From: a virus
Lineage: Duplodnaviria; Heunggongvirae; Uroviricota; Caudoviricetes
DNA: 15,658 nt
Direction: 5' to 3' (one strand)
Virus record (IMG/VR): IMGVR_UViG_2721755662_000003
A program made the translations under genes and the position numbers. Positions 1,236 through 15,658 of the stretch are shown here, piece by piece. The notes beneath the pieces are model-generated. The model made no database searches. It saw only the letters and a list, made by a program, of their open reading frames with translations, and was not told the origin of the DNA. Position 1 is the first letter of the stretch; each line of letters starts with the position of its first letter.

Positions 1236-1251
1236 CAGTATGCGCATACTG
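1236..1251. promoter_or_regulatory. Perfect 16-bp palindrome CAGTATGCGCATACTG just downstream of int stop
   Basis: Read directly: cagtatgc/gcatactg is self-complementary; preceded by two T-runs; operator-like or hairpin. Confidence 0.4.
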
Positions 1252-1266
1252 GATATGCGAACAGAT

Positions 1267-1310
1267 ACAACGTGCAACAATGAGCAACAATGTGGAACAA
1301 CTACGAACAA
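1267..1310 (-). repeat. Five direct repeats of ACAA (minus-strand TTGT, mostly TTGTTC/G) with exact 10-bp phasing
   Basis: atACAA cgtgcaACAA tgagcaACAA tgtggaACAA ctacgaACAA at 1267,1277,1287,1297,1307; same motif as arrays at 7899-7949 and 15383-15408. Confidence 0.65.
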
Positions 1311-1405
1311 GAGGCGAAAAAGCGTACGGATTTATAAGTAGCTGATTTTTAATGTGTTACTGGTTTTTTGTACACTAGCGAATCACTCTTTAAAGAGCGA
1401 GAAAA

Positions 1406-1432: not shown

Positions 1433-1583
1433 TGTATTAACATGAATTTAAAAGATTTTATTCTTACTGTTTCATTTTCTGTAAATCATACATCCTCAGT
1501 ATTTGCCATTCATCACTCTAGCGGGAACAATACGACACAATAAGACACCTGATGACTCTTTAAGAAACGAAAGGGGGGCAATA

Positions 1584-1772
1584 GTGTTAAGCACTGATCG
1601 GTTTATACGTGAAAAAGAATGCGAAAAACTAACCGGCCTTAGCCGTACGTGTCGCTACCGCCTGGAAAAGGCCGGACAATTCCCATCACGTCGTAAACTT
1701 GGCGGTCGTTCCGTTGGCTGGTCTTTATCCGAGGTTCTGGCCTGGAAGGATAGCTGCAAGGCAGTTCATTAA
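1584..1772 (+). CDS. alpA: AlpA/Vis-family winged-helix regulator/excisionase (about 62 aa from GTG 1584; maximal ORF from ATG 1503)
   Basis: Sequence LSTDRFIREKECEKLTGLSRTCRYRLEKAGQFPSRRKLGGRSVGWSLSEVLAWKD matches the AlpA pattern; RBS aagggggg 5 nt upstream of GTG 1584. Confidence 0.85.
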   Translation: MLSTDRFIREKECEKLTGLSRTCRYRLEKAGQFPSRRKLGGRSVGWSLSEVLAWKDSCKAVH

Positions 1773-4562: not shown

Positions 4563-4862
4563 ATGAAACTTAAATATTCTGGCTTAACTGCCAGTGGCAA
4601 CACTCACCCTAAATTTACGCGCGGCGATATTTACCGCGACCAGTACGGCGGCACGGTAATGATTAAGGGCGTGGAAGAACGGCGCGTAACCTACCGCCGT
4701 GAAGGTTACGAATATGATTGCGTGATGCCTGTTTATCAGTTCCGGCGTGATTTTTCTCTGGTACAGACCGCGCCGCATAACGTGTCCACCAGCAACGCCA
4801 GGGCACGGGCAAACATCCAGAAGCTGAAAACCATGATTAACGGATTCAGGGGTAAAAAATGA
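4563..4862 (+). CDS. Hypothetical protein (99 aa) immediately upstream of and overlapping primase start
   Basis: ORF track; stop overlaps primase ATG (ATGA). Confidence 0.5.
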   Translation: MKLKYSGLTASGNTHPKFTRGDIYRDQYGGTVMIKGVEERRVTYRREGYEYDCVMPVYQFRRDFSLVQTAPHNVSTSNARARANIQKLKTMINGFRGKK

Positions 4863-6613
4863 AACTGGCACCGAACGTAAAACAGCAGTCACGCGGCATA
4901 AAACACAAAGAAACAGAAGTCATTATTTTTGCGGGTAGTGATGCCTGGTCACACGCAAAACAATGGCAGGAACATGACGCGCGTATGGCCGGAGATAATG
5001 AGCCTCCTGTGTGGCTTGGGGAGCAGCAGTTATCCGAACTGGATAAGCTGCAAATTGTGCCGGAAGGCAGAAAATCCGTGCGCATATTCAGGGCCGGATA
5101 TCTTGCGCCAGTAATGATAAAGGCGATTGGTCAGAAGCTGGCGGCGGCAGGCGTACAGGATGCAAATTTTTACCCTGATGGTATGCACGGTCAGAAGGTG
5201 GAGAACTGGCGCGAATATCTGGCCCGTGAGCGCCAGAATCTTTCTGATGGTCTGGTCATTGAGCTTCCGGTAAAGCAAAAGGCGCAACTTTCGCAGATGG
5301 CGGACAGTGAGCGCGCGCAGCTGCTTGCCGATCGCTTTGATGGCGTTTGCGTACATCCTGAAAGTGAAATCGTTCACGTATGGCGCGGCGGGGTATGGTG
5401 TCCGGTCAGCACAATGGAACTTAGCCGCGAAATGGTGGCGATCTATTCAGAGCACAGGGCCACTTTCAGCAAGCGCGTAATCAATAACGCCGTGGAAGCG
5501 TTAAAAGTTATTGCCGAACCAATGGGCGAGCCGTCCGGCGATTTGTTGCCGTTCGCCAATGGTGCGCTTGACCTGAAAACGGGGGAATTTTCCCCGCACA
5601 CGCCGGAGAACTGGATCACCACGCACAACGGCATTGAGTACACGCCACCAGCACCAGGGGAGAACATCCGCGATAACGCGCCAAACTTTCATAAATGGCT
5701 TGAGCACGCAGCCGGAAAAGACCCGCGCAAGATGATGCGTATATGTGCCGCGCTGTACATGATTATGGCGAACCGGTACGACTGGCAGATGTTTATTGAG
5801 GCCACCGGAGACGGCGGGAGCGGTAAAAGTACATTCACACACATAGCCAGCCTTCTGGCAGGGAAACAGAACACGGTAAGCGCTGAAATGACATCGCTTG
5901 ATGATGCTGGTGGACGTGCGCAGGTTGTCGGGAGTCGTCTTATCGTCCTGGCTGACCAGCCGAAATATACAGGCGAAGGAACGGGCATCAAGAAAATCAC
6001 GGGCGGTGACCCCGTGGAAATTAACCCGAAATACGAAAAGCGTTTCACGGCGGTAATCAGGGCGGTGGTGCTGGCGACCAACAATAACCCGATGATATTC
6101 ACCGAACGGGCCGGAGGTGTGGCACGTCGTCGCGTGATTTTCCGTTTCGACAATATCGTCAGTGAGGCCGAAAAAGACAGGGAGCTACCGGAAAAGATCG
6201 CGGCTGAAATCCCTGTCATTATCCGCCGATTGCTGGCGAACTTTACCGACCCTGAGAAGGCACGGGCTTTACTACTGGAACAGCGTGACGGTGATGAAGC
6301 TCTGGCAATAAAGCAACAGACGGATCCGGTTATTGAGTTTTGCCAGTTCCTGAATTTTCTGGAGGAAGCACGCGGCCTGATGATGGGCGGCGGTGGCGAT
6401 TCAGTGAAGTACACGACCAGAAACAGCCTTTACCGCGTCTATCTGGCGTTTATGGCGTACGCAGGCAGGAGCAAACCGCTAAACGTAAATGACTTTGGCA
6501 AGGCTATGAAGCCAGCCGCGAAAGTTTACGGACATGAATATATTACGCGGAAAGTTAAGGGAGTAACGCAGACTAACGCAATAACAACAGACGAGTGCGA
6601 CGCGTTTTTATAA
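4859..6613 (+). CDS. Replication protein: P4-family primase C-terminal type (D5_N-like region plus SF3 helicase NTPase), 584 aa
   Basis: Walker A GDGGSGKST, Walker-B-like LIVLADQP, D5_N-like region LPFANGALDLKTGEFSPHTPENWITTHNGIEY; followed directly by iteron ori. Confidence 0.85.
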   Translation: MKLAPNVKQQSRGIKHKETEVIIFAGSDAWSHAKQWQEHDARMAGDNEPPVWLGEQQLSELDKLQIVPEGRKSVRIFRAGYLAPVMIKAIGQKLAAAGVQDANFYPDGMHGQKVENWREYLARERQNLSDGLVIELPVKQKAQLSQMADSERAQLLADRFDGVCVHPESEIVHVWRGGVWCPVSTMELSREMVAIYSEHRATFSKRVINNAVEALKVIAEPMGEPSGDLLPFANGALDLKTGEFSPHTPENWITTHNGIEYTPPAPGENIRDNAPNFHKWLEHAAGKDPRKMMRICAALYMIMANRYDWQMFIEATGDGGSGKSTFTHIASLLAGKQNTVSAEMTSLDDAGGRAQVVGSRLIVLADQPKYTGEGTGIKKITGGDPVEINPKYEKRFTAVIRAVVLATNNNPMIFTERAGGVARRRVIFRFDNIVSEAEKDRELPEKIAAEIPVIIRRLLANFTDPEKARALLLEQRDGDEALAIKQQTDPVIEFCQFLNFLEEARGLMMGGGGDSVKYTTRNSLYRVYLAFMAYAGRSKPLNVNDFGKAMKPAAKVYGHEYITRKVKGVTQTNAITTDECDAFL

Positions 6614-6619
6614 TTTTTT

Positions 6620-6860
6620 GTAATTGCTGTCTACCCTGTCTACCTGAGTAAAGAAAAATACATTTAATTCAGTGCATTAAGTTAGGTAGATAACCTTTTT
6701 TTACTGTCTACCCACTATCTACCCTCTCTACCTGATTTTACCTGAATCAGACAGGGAGGTAGACACGGGGTAGATAGTGGATAAAAGCACTCTACCCCGC
6801 TGAAAGCCGCGCCATTACTGGTATGAGGGCCACTAAGGTAGATAAGGTAGACAAGGGGAG
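6620..6860. repeat. Iteron-type replication origin: at least 11 copies of the core TCTACC/GGTAGA (octamer YRTCTACC) in both orientations with AT-rich spacers
   Basis: tgtctacc at 6628, 6637, 6706; tatctacc 6717; tctctacc 6726; ctctaccc 6791; inverted copies ggtaga at 6685, 6758, 6771, 6838, 6847; AT-rich tracts 6611-6620, 6650-6680, 6692-6702. Confidence 0.7.
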
Positions 6861-6901: not shown

Positions 6902-7180
6902 ATGCACACTTCAGGGAAATTTAATAAATCACTCAAAAAACGCAGAGACAGAACAGAACCGAAATATCGCGCGTTAGACATGACAGAGCACGCTTTAAAG
7001 GTGGCAATCAGAACGATAGACCGCCACGCGGGGGAAGGATACGCGAAAGCACATCCCGAACTGATAAGCGCATTCATGACCACGACGGCGGCAAATTTTG
7101 CCACGCTGACAGAGCGGGAGATTGCCGAAGCGGAACAGGTAACAACCATCAACGTTAAAACCGGAGAGGTGGAATCATGA
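6902..7180 (+). CDS. Hypothetical protein (92 aa), first gene of SSB operon
   Basis: SD gaggggg upstream of ATG 6902; stop overlaps ssb start. Confidence 0.5.
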   Translation: MHTSGKFNKSLKKRRDRTEPKYRALDMTEHALKVAIRTIDRHAGEGYAKAHPELISAFMTTTAANFATLTEREIAEAEQVTTINVKTGEVES

Positions 7181-7587
7181 CAGCACAGATAGCAGCTTAC
7201 GGGCGGCTGGTGGACGACCCGCAGGTAAAACAGACCAGCAAGGGTACACCGATGACGCTGGCGCGTATGGCGGTATCGCTGCCATGCAGCCAGGCACAGG
7301 ATGGACAGGCGACGTTATGGCTATCGGTCATCGCATTTGGTAAGCAGGCCGACTTCCTGGCTAAACATCAAAAAGGCGACGTTGCCAGCGTATCCGGCAC
7401 GATGCAGGTCAGCCAGTGGACCGGACAGAACGGGGAAACGCGGCAGGGTTATCAGGTTATTGCAGACAGCGTAATCAGTGCCCGTGCGGCACGTCCTGGT
7501 GGGAGCCGACGCAAGACCACAGGCACACAGGGTAATCAGCCACCAGCGGGAGGCGATGACCCTTACGGTGATGATATTCCGTTCTGA
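7177..7587 (+). CDS. ssb: Single-stranded DNA-binding protein (136 aa)
   Basis: OB-fold region similar to E. coli SSB (WLSVIAFGKQAD vs WHRVVLFGKLAE), Gly/Pro-rich linker, acidic C-terminal tip ending DDIPF. Confidence 0.85.
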   Translation: MTAQIAAYGRLVDDPQVKQTSKGTPMTLARMAVSLPCSQAQDGQATLWLSVIAFGKQADFLAKHQKGDVASVSGTMQVSQWTGQNGETRQGYQVIADSVISARAARPGGSRRKTTGTQGNQPPAGGDDPYGDDIPF

Positions 7588-7599
7588 GGGGTGGGGACG

Positions 7600-7872
7600 A
7601 TGGTACATGACCGCATAGCGGAAGAACTGGAGGCGAAAGGCTTTTACCGGAGAGCGTCGGCGCGATGGGGTGAAGTCATGCAACTGGTGGAGACAGACAA
7701 GGAACGGCATCACATCACGATGCGACGGCTGGAATGTTCCAGGAAGGCACAGAGGCCACCGGAGCCGCCGGATAACTACGGAGACCTGAAAAAGGCGGTC
7801 GATCGCACTTATGCCGAAATGGGTATGGATGGTGCTGGTAATGAAATATGGCGAAATTACCAGGACAGATAA
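7600..7872 (+). CDS. Probable PerC-family transcriptional activator (about 90 aa from ATG 7600)
   Basis: N-terminal MVHDRIAEELEAKGFYRRASARWGEVM matches my recollection of the PerC/Pch motif; SD gaggggtgggga upstream. Confidence 0.5.
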   Translation: MVHDRIAEELEAKGFYRRASARWGEVMQLVETDKERHHITMRRLECSRKAQRPPEPPDNYGDLKKAVDRTYAEMGMDGAGNEIWRNYQDR

Positions 7873-7878
7873 TCACAC

Positions 7879-7902
7879 AGCCGGAGCAATCCGGCTTTTT
7901 GT
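7879..7902 (+). terminator. Rho-independent terminator: AGCCGGA-GCAA-TCCGGCT then TTTTTGT
   Basis: 7-bp GC-rich stem, GNRA-type tetraloop, T-run immediately 3'. Confidence 0.75.
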
Positions 7903-7949
7903 CATGTTTTGTAAATTATTTGTTCGTGGTTGTTCCACGTTGTTCACTG
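7899..7949 (+). repeat. Five 10/11-bp-phased TTGT repeats (ttgtca, ttgtaa, ttgttc, ttgttc, ttgttc) upstream of the capsid operon
   Basis: TTGT at 7899, 7909, 7920, 7930, 7940; same motif as 1267-1310 (opposite strand) and 15383-15408. Confidence 0.65.
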
Positions 7950-8000
7950 AGCGGATCGGCATATTTTACCCGAACTGAATCATGATTATTCTCGCCCGTG

Positions 8001-8158
8001 GTGCCAGGACGCTGGGGCCACTTTTCCGCCTGTTAATGTTCTCGCCAATATTCATTACCAGGCGGGAAAACGATCGGTGCGATTGCTGATTTCCTTATGA
8101 AAAACGGTTGAGTTTTTGCCGCGTCCTGGAGTTCCTTACTTAACCCCAGGACTTTTTT
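8001..8158 (+). promoter_or_regulatory. Structured untranslated leader of the capsid operon: nested inverted repeats and a hairpin plus T7 run ending 2 nt before the capsid ATG; no SD
   Basis: TTTTCCGCCTG(8022-8032)/CAGGCGGGAAAA(8059-8070); CCAGGACGC(8004-8012)/GCGTCCTGG(8121-8129); TCCTGG(8124-8129)/CCAGGA(8146-8151) followed by CTTTTTTTA. Confidence 0.4.
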
Positions 8159-8159
8159 T

Positions 8160-9317
8160 ATGCCGAGAATAATCGAATTACGCCAGCAGAAAACCGCCAT
8201 TAAAAATCAGATGCGCGACATGCTGGAGAACGCGGAAAAAGAAAACCGCAGTCTTAACGATGCTGAGGGCGCAAAATTTGACGAATTACGCGCTAAAGCT
8301 GAATCCCTCGATAAAGACATTTCCCGCCTTGAAGCCATTGCAGACGAAGAGCGCAGCAAGCCAGGTAAAAGCAGTCAGACCACTGACCCAGCCGAACTAC
8401 GTCACTACATTCTGACAGGTGAAACCCGCGCATTAAGTACAGGCGTTCCCGCTGATGGTGGTTATACCGTTATCCCCGAACTGAACACCGAAATCATGCG
8501 AATGCTGACGGATGAATCCACCATGCGCCGCATCTGTACCGTGAAGAAAATCAGCAGCAACGAGTTTAAGCAGCTTGTTTCCGCTGGCGGTGCGACCGTT
8601 AACCACGGTGAAGAGGGTAAGGCACGCGAACAGACCAGCACCCCGCAGATTAACGAGGTGAGCATTAAGCTGTATCCGGTCTATGCGTACCCGCGCACCA
8701 CGCAGGAAATCGTGGATTTTTCCGATGTGGACATCCTTTCATGGCTGACGGGCGAGATTGGCGACAACTTCACGGAAACCGAAGAAAGCGATCTGGTTGT
8801 GGGCGACGGTGACAAAAAAGCAAAAGGCTTTTTATCCGTACCCCGTGCAGAGAAGAACGACAAAGAGCGTGATTTTGGTACGTTGCAGGTAATTAAACCT
8901 TCCGAATCTCTGGCGTGGACATCTGCGGACCCGCTGATCGACCTGAAATTTGCATTACGTAAAAAATACCGCAAAAACGCGGTCTGGGTGGTTAACTCCA
9001 CGACGGCGGCAAAACTTCAGAAGGTGAAGAACGCGAACGGTGATTACATCTGGCGCGACCGTTTACAGGCGGGTGATCCTGATACGTTACTGGGCCTTCC
9101 GGTCGAATATCTGGAGTTTATGCCGGATAACGTTATTGCCCTGGGTGACTTCAAACGCGGTTACTACATTGTTGATCACGAAACAGGTGTTCGCACCAGA
9201 CCGGACAACCTCACAGAGCCGGGCTTCATCAAAATTTTCACGCAGAAATATTTAGGCGGTGGCGTGGTGGATTCGAACGCGATCAAGATTCTGGAACTGC
9301 CACAGGACGACGATTAA
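8160..9317 (+). CDS. Major capsid protein, HK97 fold, with N-terminal coiled-coil delta (scaffold) domain; 385 aa
   Basis: N-terminal 100 aa charged/helical (delta-domain-like), remainder typical HK97-family MCP; same length as HK97 gp5; prohead protease gene follows. Confidence 0.9.
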   Translation: MPRIIELRQQKTAIKNQMRDMLENAEKENRSLNDAEGAKFDELRAKAESLDKDISRLEAIADEERSKPGKSSQTTDPAELRHYILTGETRALSTGVPADGGYTVIPELNTEIMRMLTDESTMRRICTVKKISSNEFKQLVSAGGATVNHGEEGKAREQTSTPQINEVSIKLYPVYAYPRTTQEIVDFSDVDILSWLTGEIGDNFTETEESDLVVGDGDKKAKGFLSVPRAEKNDKERDFGTLQVIKPSESLAWTSADPLIDLKFALRKKYRKNAVWVVNSTTAAKLQKVKNANGDYIWRDRLQAGDPDTLLGLPVEYLEFMPDNVIALGDFKRGYYIVDHETGVRTRPDNLTEPGFIKIFTQKYLGGGVVDSNAIKILELPQDDD

Positions 9318-11770: not shown

Positions 11771-12210
11771 TGCCGTGGCAACCATTAAGACGATGCACAG
11801 AACCAGGCTGTAACAGGCGCGTTAAATCCGGCAAGTGTGAGGAGCACAGGCGGGCGGCATGGCGTGCAGAGGATGCCAGACGAGGACACCGCCGCGCGCG
11901 TGGATATTCCAGACAGTGGGACAAATACCGCGCCATGTATCTGAGTAAAAACCCGTTATGCGTGCGATGCCTTGAGAAGGGGATATATACGCCCGCCGTG
12001 GTGGTGGATCACATTATCCCGATTAATGGCGGTGATGATGTTCTCTTCTGGCCCGAATGGAACCATCAACCATTGTGCCAGGCGTGTCATAACCAGAAAA
12101 CGAAATGGCTTGATCCGGCAACAAAAAGCAAGCGTGCCGCAGGTGGATTTCGTGAAGAGGAAGAACGGGCCGCTAACCGCAATAACTGGATGTATGACGC
12201 TGATGAATGA
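11770..12210 (+). CDS. HNH endonuclease associated with terminase (146 aa)
   Basis: Cys pairs CxxC...C...C with VDHIIPI and NHQPLCQACHNQKT (HNH motif); sits immediately upstream of TerS as in cos-type HK97-like packaging modules. Confidence 0.85.
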   Translation: MPWQPLRRCTEPGCNRRVKSGKCEEHRRAAWRAEDARRGHRRARGYSRQWDKYRAMYLSKNPLCVRCLEKGIYTPAVVVDHIIPINGGDDVLFWPEWNHQPLCQACHNQKTKWLDPATKSKRAAGGFREEEERAANRNNWMYDADE

Positions 12211-12376
12211 GCGGGAACAAAACCGCCTTATCCGTGGACTTATAAGGCAGCGTGACGCATGGAAGACACAGGAAACAGGGCATAAAGATAAAGCGTCAGG
12301 ACGCGCAGAACGCATCACAGCGAAGCGATTAACCGACCGTGACCGCGAGGTTATGGAATGTTTCCGCAATCGCTGA
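12203..12376 (+). CDS. Possible small highly charged protein (57 aa) between HNH and TerS; low confidence
   Basis: 3' part of track ORF 11972-12376 lying outside HNH; MNEREQNRLIRGLIRQRDAWK...; no clear SD. Confidence 0.25.
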   Translation: MNEREQNRLIRGLIRQRDAWKTQETGHKDKASGRAERITAKRLTDRDREVMECFRNR

Positions 12377-12379
12377 TGA

Positions 12380-12440
12380 GGCTGTATGACGGGGTGGGGG
12401 GCGTTTTCAGGACAAACCCGACCCCGCCGGGCACCGAACG
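12380..12440. other. Candidate cos/packaging site: G-run and C-run rich segment between HNH and terS
   Basis: acggggtggggggcg ... cccgaccccgccgggc; position matches where cos lies in HK97-type phages that use HNH+TerS+TerL. Confidence 0.3.
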
Positions 12441-12498
12441 CCTCCTCAAATTTTTATGCACGGGAATTTTTTGAAAAATAATCTGACGAAAAATAAGC

Positions 12499-15382: not shown

Positions 15383-15447
15383 TTGTGTCTATTTGTTCCA
15401 CGTTGTTTCATACAGTGCACCGAACGGTGTAGTCACTGGTGTAGTCA
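15383..15447 (+). repeat. att-proximal direct repeats: TTGTGT/TTGTTC/TTGTTT (15383, 15394, 15403) and GGTGTAGTCA x2 (15426-15435, 15438-15447)
   Basis: Read directly; lies roughly 70-140 bp inside the inferred right junction, where arm-type and Xis-type sites usually sit. Confidence 0.45.
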
Positions 15448-15493
15448 TTTTGCGATTTTTGGCACTTTTTGCGGTGTTAATTATTTAATTAAA

Positions 15494-15658
15494 TCAATGT
15501 GTTATGCGAAATAAGTTATATATAACAGCAATAAATAATGCGAGAATAAACGGCACGATGATCTCGGCGGCAAAACGGATACCGCAGAGAATAATGACCA
15601 GCATTCCCAACATAATGACGATTTTTAGGCCATTGAGCGTGATGATCGGCTTTGCCAT
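15494..15658 (-). pseudogene. tqsA: Truncated 5' fragment of a tqsA (ydgG)-like AI-2 exporter gene: 46 host-like codons then 8 island-derived codons and stop
   Basis: Minus-strand translation [46 protein letters not shown] then YNLFRITH-stop; the first 46 residues match my recollection of the E. coli TqsA N-terminus. Confidence 0.55.

What the first reader, a model, noticed from the sequence alone, without database searches (positions are those of the whole stretch)
7899..7949. Second phased TTGTT array sits between a strong terminator and the capsid operon
Five TTGT units at 7899, 7909, 7920, 7930, 7940 follow the GNRA-loop terminator (7879-7902) and precede a structured leader and the capsid gene. 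This arrangement would let an island-encoded activator (AlpA or the adjacent PerC-like protein) switch on the head/packaging operon only after induction. The orientation is opposite to the array at 1267-1310.
Basis: partly seen in the sequence, partly recalled or inferred. Interest (0 to 1): 0.65.

Follow-up and report, generated by a model that had tools for sequence, protein, structure and literature searches.

The report
Repeat array upstream of capsid promoter
Three exact TTGTTC repeats, one DNA turn apart, sit just upstream of a previously undescribed but strongly conserved promoter and folded leader that drive the capsid genes of a phage satellite. The same repeat code also marks the satellite's integration sites, so one island protein may link excision to capsid production.

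Summary
The window is a capsid-forming phage-inducible chromosomal island (cf-PICI) of E. coli, inserted in tqsA. The array is real but smaller than claimed. Only TTGTTC at 7920, 7930 and 7940 are true repeats. The unit at 7899 is the terminator's T-tail, and the unit at 7909 lies in a separate conserved box, TTTTGTAAATTAT.

Comparison with about 120 related contigs shows a fixed cassette: box, three phased hexamers, a sigma-70-type promoter, a conserved hairpin at the predicted transcript start, and a structured leader that hides the ribosome-binding site. All 96 distinct sequences carry a TAnnnT -10 element at one offset. In the window the -35 is 7965-7970 and the -10 is 7987-7992. The repeats therefore lie at about -54 to -79, where an upstream activator site would sit.

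In this element the 25-mer recurs inverted behind int (2 mismatches), and a 15-mer recurs exactly in the attR arm. A fourth array lies in the attL arm. This pattern is typical of excisionase-type winged-helix proteins, so AlpA is the best candidate binder. PerC is very unlikely.

The binder is unproven. Across elements the repeat motif does not track the AlpA allele, so a host nucleoid protein remains a serious rival.

The parts
7879..7902 (+). Intrinsic terminator ending the early (SSB-PerC) operon. Stem AGCCGGA/TCCGGCT, GCAA loop, T-tail.
   Evidence: Terminator scan. Fold energy -13.2 kcal/mol. A near-identical terminator also follows PerC in the EDL933-type element, which carries one extra small gene between two such terminators.
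7907..7919 (+). Conserved box TTTTGTAAATTAT, the left edge of the conserved late cassette. TTGTAA may be a degenerate fourth repeat, 11 bp before the first TTGTTC.
   Evidence: GTAAAT is nearly invariant in about 95 distinct upstream regions. Homology between elements with unrelated upstream genes starts about 10 nt before this box. The distance from the box to the hairpin is 86-87 nt in 118 of 123 loci.
7920..7945 (+). Three exact TTGTTC hexamers with a 10-bp period (7920, 7930, 7940). This is the true array, at about -79 to -54 relative to the predicted start. Proposed binding sites for a head-to-tail oligomerising winged-helix protein.
   Evidence: The first hexamer is conserved in the whole family as TTGT(T/A)C. 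The second and third are degenerate elsewhere.
7965..7970 (+). Predicted -35 element TTTACC (4 of 6 matches to TTGACA), with a 16-nt spacer to the -10.
   Evidence: The best match to TTGACA across 96 sequences is at a 16-nt spacer: mean 3.66 of 6, against 1.0-2.1 at spacers of 15, 17 and 18.
7987..7992 (+). Predicted -10 element TATTCT of the late (packaging-operon) promoter. The predicted start is about 7998-8000.
   Evidence: TAnnnT is present in 96 of 96 distinct homologous regions at this exact offset, as ten different hexamers. No other offset reaches more than 10 of 96. The simple consensus scan did not call it, because it matches only 8 of 12 positions.
7998..8021 (+). Hairpin 1 at the predicted 5' end of the transcript: GTGGTGCCAG-GACG-CTGGGGCCAC. 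In most relatives it is the invariant 25-mer GTGGCACTCAGACGTGAGCCGCCAC.
   Evidence: Fold energy -17 kcal/mol. Nine pairs, three kept through changes on both sides between the window and the other sequences. The 25-mer is exact in more than 120 viral-collection contigs.
8022..8069 (+). Hairpin 2 of the leader (CCGCCTG...CAGGCGG). It is a long stem whose sequence differs between elements but always pairs.
   Evidence: Fold. Alternative stems at the same place in relatives include GGCCGTTTAA/TTAAACGGCC, GTCCACCTGG/CCAGGTGGAC and GGCCGTCAG/CTGACGGCC. These were read by eye. The consensus-structure prediction on the automatic alignment did not capture them.
8123..8159 (+). Hairpin 3 (GTCCTGG...CCAGGAC) followed by T7, directly before the capsid ATG. 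The AGGA ribosome-binding site (8148-8151) lies in the 3' arm.
   Evidence: Fold energy -14.1 kcal/mol. Relatives have an analogous TGGTTTC...GAAACCA hairpin at the same place but no T-run.
8160..9317 (+). Major capsid gene, the first gene of the packaging operon (capsid, protease, portal, head completion, connector, HNH, TerS, TerL, through about 14500).
   Evidence: Pfam matches. RefSeq annotation of the identical element.
1267..1311 (-). Inverted copy of the array, between int and alpA. It has 4-5 AACAA units on the top strand with a 10-bp period.
   Evidence: 25-mer with 2 mismatches on the minus strand. It forms a 34-nt inverted repeat with the attL-arm array, so the two arrays flank int.
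15383..15407 (+). Array of the same motif in the attR arm (TTGT, TTGTTC, TTGTTT). It shares the exact 15-mer TTGTTCCACGTTGTT with 7930-7944.
   Evidence: It lies about 115-140 bp left of the candidate core ATAACAGCA (15522-15530).
15426..15448 (+). Doubled motif GGTGTAGTCACT / GGTGTAGTCAT next to the attR-arm array. The same doublet follows the attL-arm array, left of the window. These are probably integrase arm-type sites.
   Evidence: (family D8). It is analogous to the doubled tgTGTATTGCa motif in both arms of helper-embedded PICIs (PMC10111431), confirmed in L001.
1584..1772 (+). alpA, the candidate binder. It is a winged-helix protein of the excisionase and regulator family.
   Evidence: Pfam Phage_AlpA, E = 1.5e-16. 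PHROG family 'excisionase and transcriptional regulator'.
7591..7872 (+). PerC-family gene immediately upstream.
   Evidence: Pfam PerC, E = 4.6e-43. It is absent from elements that keep the identical array.

Best explanation
The three TTGTTC repeats are the upstream protein-binding part of the promoter of the cf-PICI packaging operon.

Shown by sequence comparison:
- The operon is insulated from early transcription by a terminator.
- It has its own sigma-70-type promoter, with -35 TTTACC at 7965-7970 and -10 TATTCT at 7987-7992.
- The transcript is predicted to begin at a conserved hairpin (7998).
- The repeats lie at about -54 to -79, next to a family-wide box at -80 to -92.

Inferred:
- In this element the repeats are bound by the island's AlpA protein. 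AlpA is a small winged-helix excisionase and regulator. Proteins of this kind line up head-to-tail on direct repeats spaced one helical turn apart.
- When a helper phage switches alpA on, AlpA would occupy the same DNA code in four places. In both att arms it would sit next to the integrase arm sites and promote excision. Behind int and upstream of alpA it would drive autoregulation. At the capsid promoter it would help RNA polymerase use a weak -35 element with a 16-nt spacer.
- The 5' hairpin and the hidden ribosome-binding site would add RNA-level control.
For: - The array is far beyond chance.
- The 25-mer 7920-7944 recurs inverted at 1286-1310 with 2 mismatches, spacers included. The 15-mer TTGTTCCACGTTGTT recurs exactly at 15393-15407 (0 of 200 shuffles).
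- A fourth array lies in the attL arm just upstream of int.
- In both arms the array sits next to a doubled GGTGTAGTCACT motif. This matches the arrangement of integrase arm sites plus accessory-factor sites in other integrative elements.
- A -10 of the form TAnnnT is present in 96 of 96 distinct homologous regions at one offset, and the box-to-hairpin spacing is fixed at 86-87 nt.
- The array is an island of conservation between non-homologous flanks. L001 matches only window 7890-7945 at 91% identity.
- Literature:
  - Canonical alpA is needed for PICI excision (PMC11773190).
  - Overexpressing alpA alone is used to produce EcCIEDL933 capsids (bioRxiv 10.1101/2025.02.11.637232).
  - Binding sites of recombination directionality factors are direct repeats one helical turn apart, and such factors can double as transcription regulators (phage 186 Apl, PMC7498355).
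- All 10 distinct arrays linked to an HTH_17-type regulator are of the TAC class, and all short-AlpA elements are of the TTC class.
Against: - No binding or start-site data exist.
- The identical TTGTTC x3 array occurs in elements whose AlpA proteins are only 47-58% identical and whose att arms carry another motif. L001 has TGTATTGC doublets. L075 has AATATC x3 behind int.
- Elements with the same long AlpA allele carry different repeat classes.
- No protein family separates by repeat class.
- Similarity between alpA-proximal DNA and the element's own late array is only marginal: p = 0.04 for 5-mers, 0.07 for 6-mers and 0.33 for 7-mers.
- L002 has a 100% identical AlpA but no such array before its different late genes.
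- The most conserved part of the region (box plus first hexamer) is shared by elements with unrelated regulators. This points to a common factor, possibly from the host.
- The repeat centres (about -56, -66, -76) are not the classic -61.5/-71.5 positions.
- The simple promoter scan found nothing here.
Confidence: 0.4

Rival explanations
1. The box plus repeats form a site for a host nucleoid-associated protein such as Fis or IHF, or an intrinsically bent upstream element. This site would set the strength of the late promoter in all cf-PICIs. Under this reading, the resemblance to the int/att arrays in this element arises because those arms use the same host factor, as lambda att arms use IHF and Fis.
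For: - GTAAATTATTTGT(T/A)C is the best-conserved part of the region and is shared by elements with AlpA, long AlpA or HTH_17 regulators and unrelated integrases.
- No island protein co-varies with the repeat class.
- From memory, not tested: G-N13-C with an A/T-rich centre fits the loose Fis consensus, and AACAAATAATTTA matches 7 of 9 IHF consensus positions.
Against: - The second and third hexamers are perfect copies only in this lineage. They match the element's own int-proximal array including the spacers, 23 of 25 positions. A degenerate host-factor site would not require that.
- A promoter dependent only on host factors would not explain why capsids appear only after alpA induction.
- No matrix for Fis or IHF could be run here.
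Confidence: 0.22
2. The repeats bind a repressor or silencer, from the island or H-NS-like. This keeps the capsid operon off in the integrated state, and induction relieves it.
For: - The late operon must be silent before induction.
- Proteins of the recombination directionality factor type, such as P2 Cox and 186 Apl, act mainly as repressors at their repeat arrays (PMC7498355).
- The -10 is well conserved and the promoter may not need activation.
Against: - The sites lie upstream of -54 and do not overlap the -35, the -10 or the start, which is an unusual position for simple repression.
- AlpA is described as an activator in E. coli PICIs (PMC6092414).
Confidence: 0.1
3. The perfect triple repeat has little function at this position. 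A short copy of the int-proximal array was pasted by ectopic recombination into a pre-existing, weakly repetitive upstream region and then spread with the late module.
For: - The perfect triple has a single origin. The window type and the L001 type differ by 1-2 bases.
- It occurs on several backbones.
- Some relatives show decay: L063 and L107 read TTGTTC..TTGTTT..CTGTTC.
- Most family members manage with degenerate second and third hexamers.
Against: - The array is kept intact in at least 15 loci with different upstream flanks. Four sequenced copies of the window type checked here (L003, L004, L136 and the window) also keep it unchanged, while bases on either side vary.
- Its phase relative to the box and promoter is preserved to within 1 nt.
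Confidence: 0.1
4. AlpA acts here as a processive antiterminator, like Pseudomonas aeruginosa AlpA. The array would be its loading site, letting RNA polymerase read through the leader hairpin and T7 before the capsid gene, or through the PerC terminator.
For: - P. aeruginosa AlpA belongs to the same Pfam family. It binds two half-sites (GGGACG-N5-GGTA) and bypasses terminators placed just upstream of the first gene (PMC7969949).
- The window has a stem plus T7 directly before the ATG.
- All island genes point one way.
Against: - In that system the site lies between -35 and -10. Here the repeats are upstream of -35 and downstream of the PerC terminator.
- Most relatives have no T-run after hairpin 3.
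- The terminator lies before the array in some elements and after it in others.
Confidence: 0.07
5. The repeats are bound by the adjacent PerC-like protein or by the arm-binding domain of the integrase.
For: - PerC is a known activator family and its gene ends 27 bp before the terminator.
- Integrase arm sites can be tandem direct repeats, and the motif is present in both att arms.
Against: - PerC is absent from many elements with the identical array. It is present in L002, which lacks the array.
- For the integrase, the doubled GGTGTAGTCACT motif is the better arm-site candidate: four half-sites, both arms, and a parallel in helper-embedded PICIs (PMC10111431).
- An arm site 7.5 kb from the core has no role in recombination.
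Confidence: 0.06

Closest known systems
Repeat arrays of recombination directionality factors that double as transcription sites (lambda Xis X1-X1.5-X2, P2 Cox boxes, phage 186 Apl, P4 Vis)
   Same: Short direct repeats are spaced one helical turn apart. They are found both at the attachment site and at a promoter of the same element, and a small winged-helix protein is encoded next to int (PMC7498355; general knowledge for Xis, Cox and Vis).
   Different: Those proteins mostly repress early or lysogenic promoters, although Cox activates P4 PLL. Here the array sits upstream of a structural-gene promoter of a satellite. Arrays occur in both att arms and also flank int as an inverted pair. Binding has not been shown.
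AlpA as master activator of Gram-negative PICIs (EcCICFT073, EcCIEDL933, EcCIMP1)
   Same: The window has the same int-alpA module; the O157 relative L002 has an identical AlpA. AlpA is needed for induction, excision and transfer, and it activates its own promoter (PMC6092414, PMC11773190, bioRxiv 10.1101/2022.09.08.507074).
   Different: The PICI papers read here describe no AlpA binding site and no promoter for the capsid operon.
Pseudomonas aeruginosa AlpA antiterminator and its binding element
   Same: Same protein family. It has two phased half-sites, and terminator-like structures lie just upstream of the first regulated gene (PMC7969949, PMC9371919).
   Different: That site lies between -35 and -10. 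The repeats here are upstream of -35, number three to four, and have another sequence.
Doubled att-arm motif of helper-embedded PICIs (tgTGTATTGCa x2)
   Same: The window element has an analogous doublet (GGTGTAGTCACT x2) in both arms at similar distances (PMC10111431).
   Different: The TTGTTC arrays are a second, separate class of repeat lying next to these doublets. That paper did not describe them.
Activator-dependent sigma-70 promoters with upstream sites (class I type)
   Same: Good -10, weak -35, non-optimal 16-nt spacer, and protein sites between -50 and -90 (general knowledge).
   Different: The site centres are not at the classic -61.5/-71.5 positions. The sites are direct repeats, not a dyad.

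Membership tests
Excisionase-type (recombination directionality factor) binding array | Three or more direct repeats spaced about one helical turn apart | tested here: met
   TTGTTC at 7920, 7930 and 7940, exactly 10 bp apart. Reached in 0-4 of 1000 shuffles.
Excisionase-type (recombination directionality factor) binding array | The same motif is present in an att arm, next to integrase arm-type sites | tested here: met
   Arrays lie at window 15383-15407 and L003 2328-2373. Each is followed by the GGTGTAGTCACT doublet.
Excisionase-type (recombination directionality factor) binding array | Bound by the element's own small winged-helix protein | not testable with these tools
   This needs a gel-shift, footprint or ChIP experiment. 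The indirect test across elements was inconclusive.
Excisionase-type (recombination directionality factor) binding array | The motif changes together with the regulator across related elements | tested here: inconclusive
   HTH_17 elements are TAC class in 10 of 10 cases, and short-AlpA elements are all TTC class. Long-AlpA elements are mixed. L001 and L075 keep TTGTTC x3 with other AlpA alleles. The permutation test gave p = 0.04 to 0.33.
Sigma-70 promoter with an upstream activator site | -10 hexamer with A at position 2 and T at position 6, at a fixed position | tested here: met
   TAnnnT in 96 of 96 distinct sequences at one offset, and at most 10 of 96 elsewhere. In the window it is TATTCT, 7987-7992.
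Sigma-70 promoter with an upstream activator site | Recognisable -35 at a 16-18 nt spacing | tested here: met
   TTTAC(T/A/C) or TTTTCT at a 16-nt spacer, mean 3.66 of 6 matches. The match is weak, and the simple scan did not call a promoter.
Sigma-70 promoter with an upstream activator site | Mapped transcription start that depends on the activator | not testable with these tools
   No transcript data are available. The start at about 7998-8000 is inferred from the -10 position.
AlpA/Q-type antitermination site | Binding element lies inside the promoter, between -35 and -10 | tested here: not met
   The repeats end at 7945, 19 bp upstream of the -35.
AlpA/Q-type antitermination site | Intrinsic terminator between the promoter and the first gene | tested here: inconclusive
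   The window has a 7-bp stem with a 16-nt loop and T7 at 8123-8159. Most relatives have the hairpin without a T-run.
Integrase arm-type sites | Located within about 150-200 bp of the crossover core | tested here: not met
   7920-7945 is about 7.6 kb from the candidate attR core at 15522-15530 and about 8.1 kb from the attL core left of the window.
Replication-origin iterons | Same unit as the iterons next to the primase gene | tested here: not met
   The origin region 6620-6860 carries at least 12 copies of TGTCTACC-type units, which is a different motif.
PerC-controlled promoter | The site co-occurs with a PerC gene across elements | tested here: not met
   The identical array occurs without PerC in L001 and relatives. 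PerC occurs without the array in L002.
Known RNA family (Rfam) for the leader | Match to a curated covariance model | tested here: not met
   No match came near any gathering score in the window or in L005.

The most novel reading that the evidence does not exclude
cf-PICIs carry a dedicated late-operon control cassette that has not been described. It consists of a host-factor-like box, phased winged-helix sites, a weak promoter, an invariant 5' hairpin and a leader that masks the ribosome-binding site. In the E. coli EDL933/FORC_069 lineage this cassette has been rewired with a copy of the element's own excision code. A single protein, AlpA, would then read one DNA word to excise the island, boost its own gene and switch on capsid synthesis.
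Probability: 0.3. Interest if true: 0.65.

Novelty: new variant of a known kind. Interest (0 to 1): 0.5.

Why it matters
cf-PICIs are widespread satellites that build their own capsids and steal only phage tails. How their capsid operon is switched on has not been described in the papers available here.

This work locates the probable promoter and its upstream control sites, and a conserved structured leader, to within a few bases. It also shows they are shared by more than 100 related elements. That turns 'AlpA induces the island' into a set of directly testable DNA-protein contacts.

If AlpA reads the same repeats at the att arms and at the capsid promoter, excision and particle production are coupled by one code. 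That would matter for understanding satellite timing and for engineering PICI-based delivery particles.

If the binder is instead a host protein, the cassette would tie satellite spread to host physiology.

Tried and rejected
- Replication iterons: rejected. The origin units are TGTCTACC.
- cos site: rejected. The GC-rich gap between HNH and terS (12390-12445) is the better candidate. The capsid-proximal region instead shows a promoter signature.
- Sigma-54 promoter: the hairpin starts with TGGCAC, which resembles a -24 element. Rejected because the -12 GC is missing and the window's own version (TGGTGC) keeps the pairing, not the motif.
- A promoter inside the box (TAAATT as -10): rejected. 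All seven bases are invariant rather than following a TAnnnT pattern, and no conserved -35 lies upstream.
- Rfam searches of the window and of L005 found nothing.
- The phage collection gave only 3 records, one of them a 16.5-kb 'phage' that looks like a cf-PICI.
- The small phrog_1957 gene as universal activator: it lies upstream in only 38 of 125 loci and is deleted in the window.
- Enrichment of early proteins in loci with the perfect triple gave only linkage, to SSB.
- Nearest-neighbour concordance of every protein family with repeat class showed no separation.
- The k-mer similarity test between alpA-proximal DNA and the late array was marginal.
- E. coli K-12 CP4-57 intA-alpA was inspected as a reference for AlpA sites. 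It has a different AlpA type and no phased array, so it was uninformative.
- The late-module small ORFs (60 aa and 93 aa) matched only PHROG families of unknown function.

Full report
**What the window is.** The 15.7-kb window is a capsid-forming phage-inducible chromosomal island (cf-PICI). All its genes point the same way:
- integrase (1-1218)
- AlpA (1584-1772)
- a D5-type primase (4859-6613)
- SSB (7177-7587)
- a PerC-family protein (7591-7872)
- an HK97-type packaging module: capsid 8160-9317, protease, portal, head completion, connector, HNH, TerS and TerL

It is 100% identical to an element inserted in tqsA of E. coli FORC_069. Part of the PerC-capsid region is found in 831 of 5426 complete E. 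coli genomes, and 353 hold at least 80% of it.

**The observation.**
- TTGT occurs at the five stated positions. A five-unit chain with 9-12 bp spacing never arose in 1000 dinucleotide-preserving shuffles.
- The units are of three kinds.
  - 7899-7902 is the T-tail of the terminator and varies among close relatives.
  - 7909-7912 lies in a separate box, TTTTGTAAATTAT (7907-7919).
  - Only 7920, 7930 and 7940 are identical TTGTTC hexamers at exactly 10 bp.
- The terminator is real: GCAA loop, -13.2 kcal/mol.
- The array at 1267-1310 is real and inverted.
One is at 15383-15407 in the attR arm. The other lies just outside the window, upstream of int in the attL arm at L003 2328-2373.
- The 25-mer 7920-7944 recurs on the minus strand at 1286-1310 with 2 mismatches, spacers included. 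The 15-mer TTGTTCCACGTTGTT recurs exactly at 15393-15407. Neither recurrence arose in 200 shuffles.

**What surrounds the array.**
- I collected relatives in five genera with the capsid protein. I then collected more than 120 viral-collection contigs with a 25-nt hairpin sequence shared by most of them.
- The region upstream of the capsid gene proved to be a conserved cassette. In order, it contains:
  - the box;
  - three hexamers in 10-bp phase;
  - about 20 nt of spacer;
  - a -35-like TTTAC(T/A/C) or TTTTCT;
  - a 16-nt spacer;
  - a hexamer that is TAnnnT in 96 of 96 distinct sequences at one exact offset (ten different hexamers; at most 10 of 96 at any other offset);
  - five bases;
  - a hairpin.
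- This is the conservation pattern expected of a sigma-70 -10 element.
- In the window the -35 is TTTACC (7965-7970), the -10 is TATTCT (7987-7992) and the hairpin starts at 7998. The predicted start is therefore about 7998-8000. The repeats lie at about -79 to -54 and the box at -92 to -80.
- The box-to-hairpin distance is 86-87 nt in 118 of 123 loci.
- The simple consensus scan did not flag this promoter, which matches only 8 of 12 positions. The start is an inference.

**The leader.**
- Hairpin 1 (7998-8021, -17 kcal/mol) keeps its pairing in the window through three double changes relative to the otherwise invariant 25-mer. The GACG loop is conserved.
- Hairpin 2 (8022-8069) has quite different sequences in different elements, but all of them pair. 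These stems were read by eye, because the consensus-structure prediction on the automatic alignment did not capture them.
- Hairpin 3 (8123-8152) encloses the AGGA ribosome-binding site. In this lineage only, it is followed by T7 and then the ATG.
- No Rfam family matches.
- The phage collection holds only three similar records.

**Position of the terminator.** In the window, L001 and L004 the terminator of the upstream genes precedes the box. In about 40% of relatives a terminator lies between the third hexamer and the -35. Either way the late operon is insulated from early transcription and must rely on its own promoter.

**Who binds? PerC.**
- PerC can be set aside. The identical array is kept in elements without PerC, for example L001, which has a ProQ/FinO protein and a small phrog_1957 protein there.
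- An element with PerC and an identical AlpA but another packaging module lacks the array.
- The window differs from the EDL933-type element by loss of the small phrog_1957 gene between two near-identical terminators. That gene lies upstream in only 38 of 125 loci.

**Who binds? Integrase and primase.**
- Both att arms carry a doubled GGTGTAGTCACT motif next to the TTGT array. This parallels the doubled TGTATTGC motif reported in both arms of helper-embedded PICIs (PMC10111431) and confirmed in L001.
- These four half-sites are the better candidates for the integrase arm domains. That leaves the TTGT arrays for an accessory factor.
- The origin iterons (TGTCTACC, 6620-6860) are unrelated.

**The case for AlpA.**
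- AlpA belongs to a PHROG family described as 'excisionase and transcriptional regulator'.
- Such proteins bind direct repeats one helical turn apart and can act both at att and at promoters (PMC7498355).
- Canonical alpA is needed for excision (PMC11773190).
- alpA overexpression alone is used to make EcCIEDL933 capsids (bioRxiv 10.1101/2025.02.11.637232).
- Arrays in both att arms, behind int and upstream of alpA, and at the capsid promoter are what a dual excisionase-activator would need.
- The near identity of the capsid array to the int-proximal array, spacers included, suggests that this lineage copied its own excision code into the late promoter.

**The case against AlpA as a general answer.**
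- The same TTGTTC x3 array occurs in helper-embedded elements with two AlpA paralogues only 47-58% identical to the window's AlpA and with other att motifs.
- It also occurs in L075, whose int-proximal array is AATATC x3.
- Across 57 elements, one long AlpA allele goes with several repeat classes. HTH_17 regulators go only with the TAC class (10 of 10) and short AlpA only with the TTC class.
- No protein family separates by repeat class.
- A permutation test for similarity between alpA-proximal DNA and the element's own late array is marginal: p = 0.04, 0.07 and 0.33 for 5-, 6- and 7-mers.
- The best-conserved part of the region, GTAAATTATTTGT(T/A)C, is common to all of them.
- From memory it resembles a Fis site (G-N13-C with an A/T-rich centre) or a weak IHF site. 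I could not test this.

**Verdict.**
- The finding is a real cis-regulatory element, but of three repeats, not five.
- It belongs to a previously undescribed, strongly conserved promoter-and-leader cassette of cf-PICI packaging operons.
- The most likely mechanism in this element is binding of AlpA as a head-to-tail oligomer upstream of a weak promoter (confidence about 0.4).
- A host nucleoid protein is the main rival (about 0.2). Repression, antitermination, a largely functionless pasted copy, and PerC or integrase are minor rivals.
- As a kind of system it is a new variant of the known dual-use excisionase repeat arrays.

Noticed in passing
window 7998-8159; same region in L001, L005-L007, L016-L135: A 5' leader of about 160 nt precedes the capsid gene. 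It has three hairpins. The first is an invariant 25-mer in more than 120 contigs, with a compensated variant in the window. The second is a long stem that varies in sequence but always pairs. The third hides the ribosome-binding site. There is no Rfam match.
   Followed up: partly
window 15426-15448 and L003 2383-2406: A doubled 12-bp motif, GGTGTAGTCACT, lies in both att arms next to the TTGT arrays. These are probably integrase arm-type sites, analogous to the TGTATTGC doublets of helper-embedded PICIs. The candidate crossover core is ATAACAGCA (window 15522-15530; L003 2246-2254).
   Followed up: partly
L003 2340-2373 and 3708-3741 (window 1267-1300): The attL-arm array and the array behind int form a 34-nt inverted repeat (76% complementary) that brackets the whole int gene. 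A protein bridging the two could loop out int.
   Followed up: no
window 7879-7902 compared with L136 9818-9840 and 10172-10195: The window lacks a 74-aa gene (phrog_1957) that is present in the EDL933-type element. The deletion lies between two near-identical terminators: GCCGGAG(A/C)AATCCGGC followed by a T-run.
   Followed up: yes
window 6620-6860: The probable replication origin lies after the primase gene. It has at least 12 TGTCTACC-type iterons in both orientations in an AT-rich stretch.
   Followed up: partly
window 12390-12445: A very GC-rich stretch (GGGGTGGGGGGCG...CCCGACCCCGCCGGGCACC) lies between the HNH and terS genes. It is the likely cos site of the satellite.
   Followed up: no
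window 1519-1550; the alpA-proximal regions of L019, L024, L034, L039, L059, L062, L078 and others: Immediately upstream of alpA, many elements have a hairpin whose loop holds two GAAC- or AAAC-type half-sites 10-11 nt apart. Examples are GCTCTCGAACCTTAGCGAACGAGAGC and GCCTCCACAAACTCAGAAACAGTGGAGGC. In some of them the 3' arm holds the ribosome-binding site. The window has GGAACAATACGACACAATAAGACAC at this position.
   Followed up: partly
window 1237-1252: A perfect 16-bp palindrome, CAGTATGCGCATACTG, lies just after the int stop codon and before the inverted array. It could be an operator or an unusual terminator.
   Followed up: no
L004 16789-16825: The Shigella flexneri relative has a different phased array, GTGAC x4 at 10 bp, in the variable region after terL.
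   Followed up: no
L001 15354-15511: The helper-embedded relative is inserted in a prophage terL gene. After its own terL it has three direct and three inverted copies of TGCGGGTTA.
   Followed up: no
window 12194-12376: A 60-aa basic ORF (phrog_3173) overlaps the end of the HNH gene. It ends with LTDRDREVMECFRNR, which looks like the first helix of a LuxR or sigma region-4 type DNA-binding motif cut short.
   Followed up: no
window 7971-7975: The spacer of the predicted late promoter contains CGAAC, the reverse complement of GTTCG. This is the half-site seen in pairs upstream of alpA in short-AlpA elements. It occurs only in the window lineage and may be chance.
   Followed up: no
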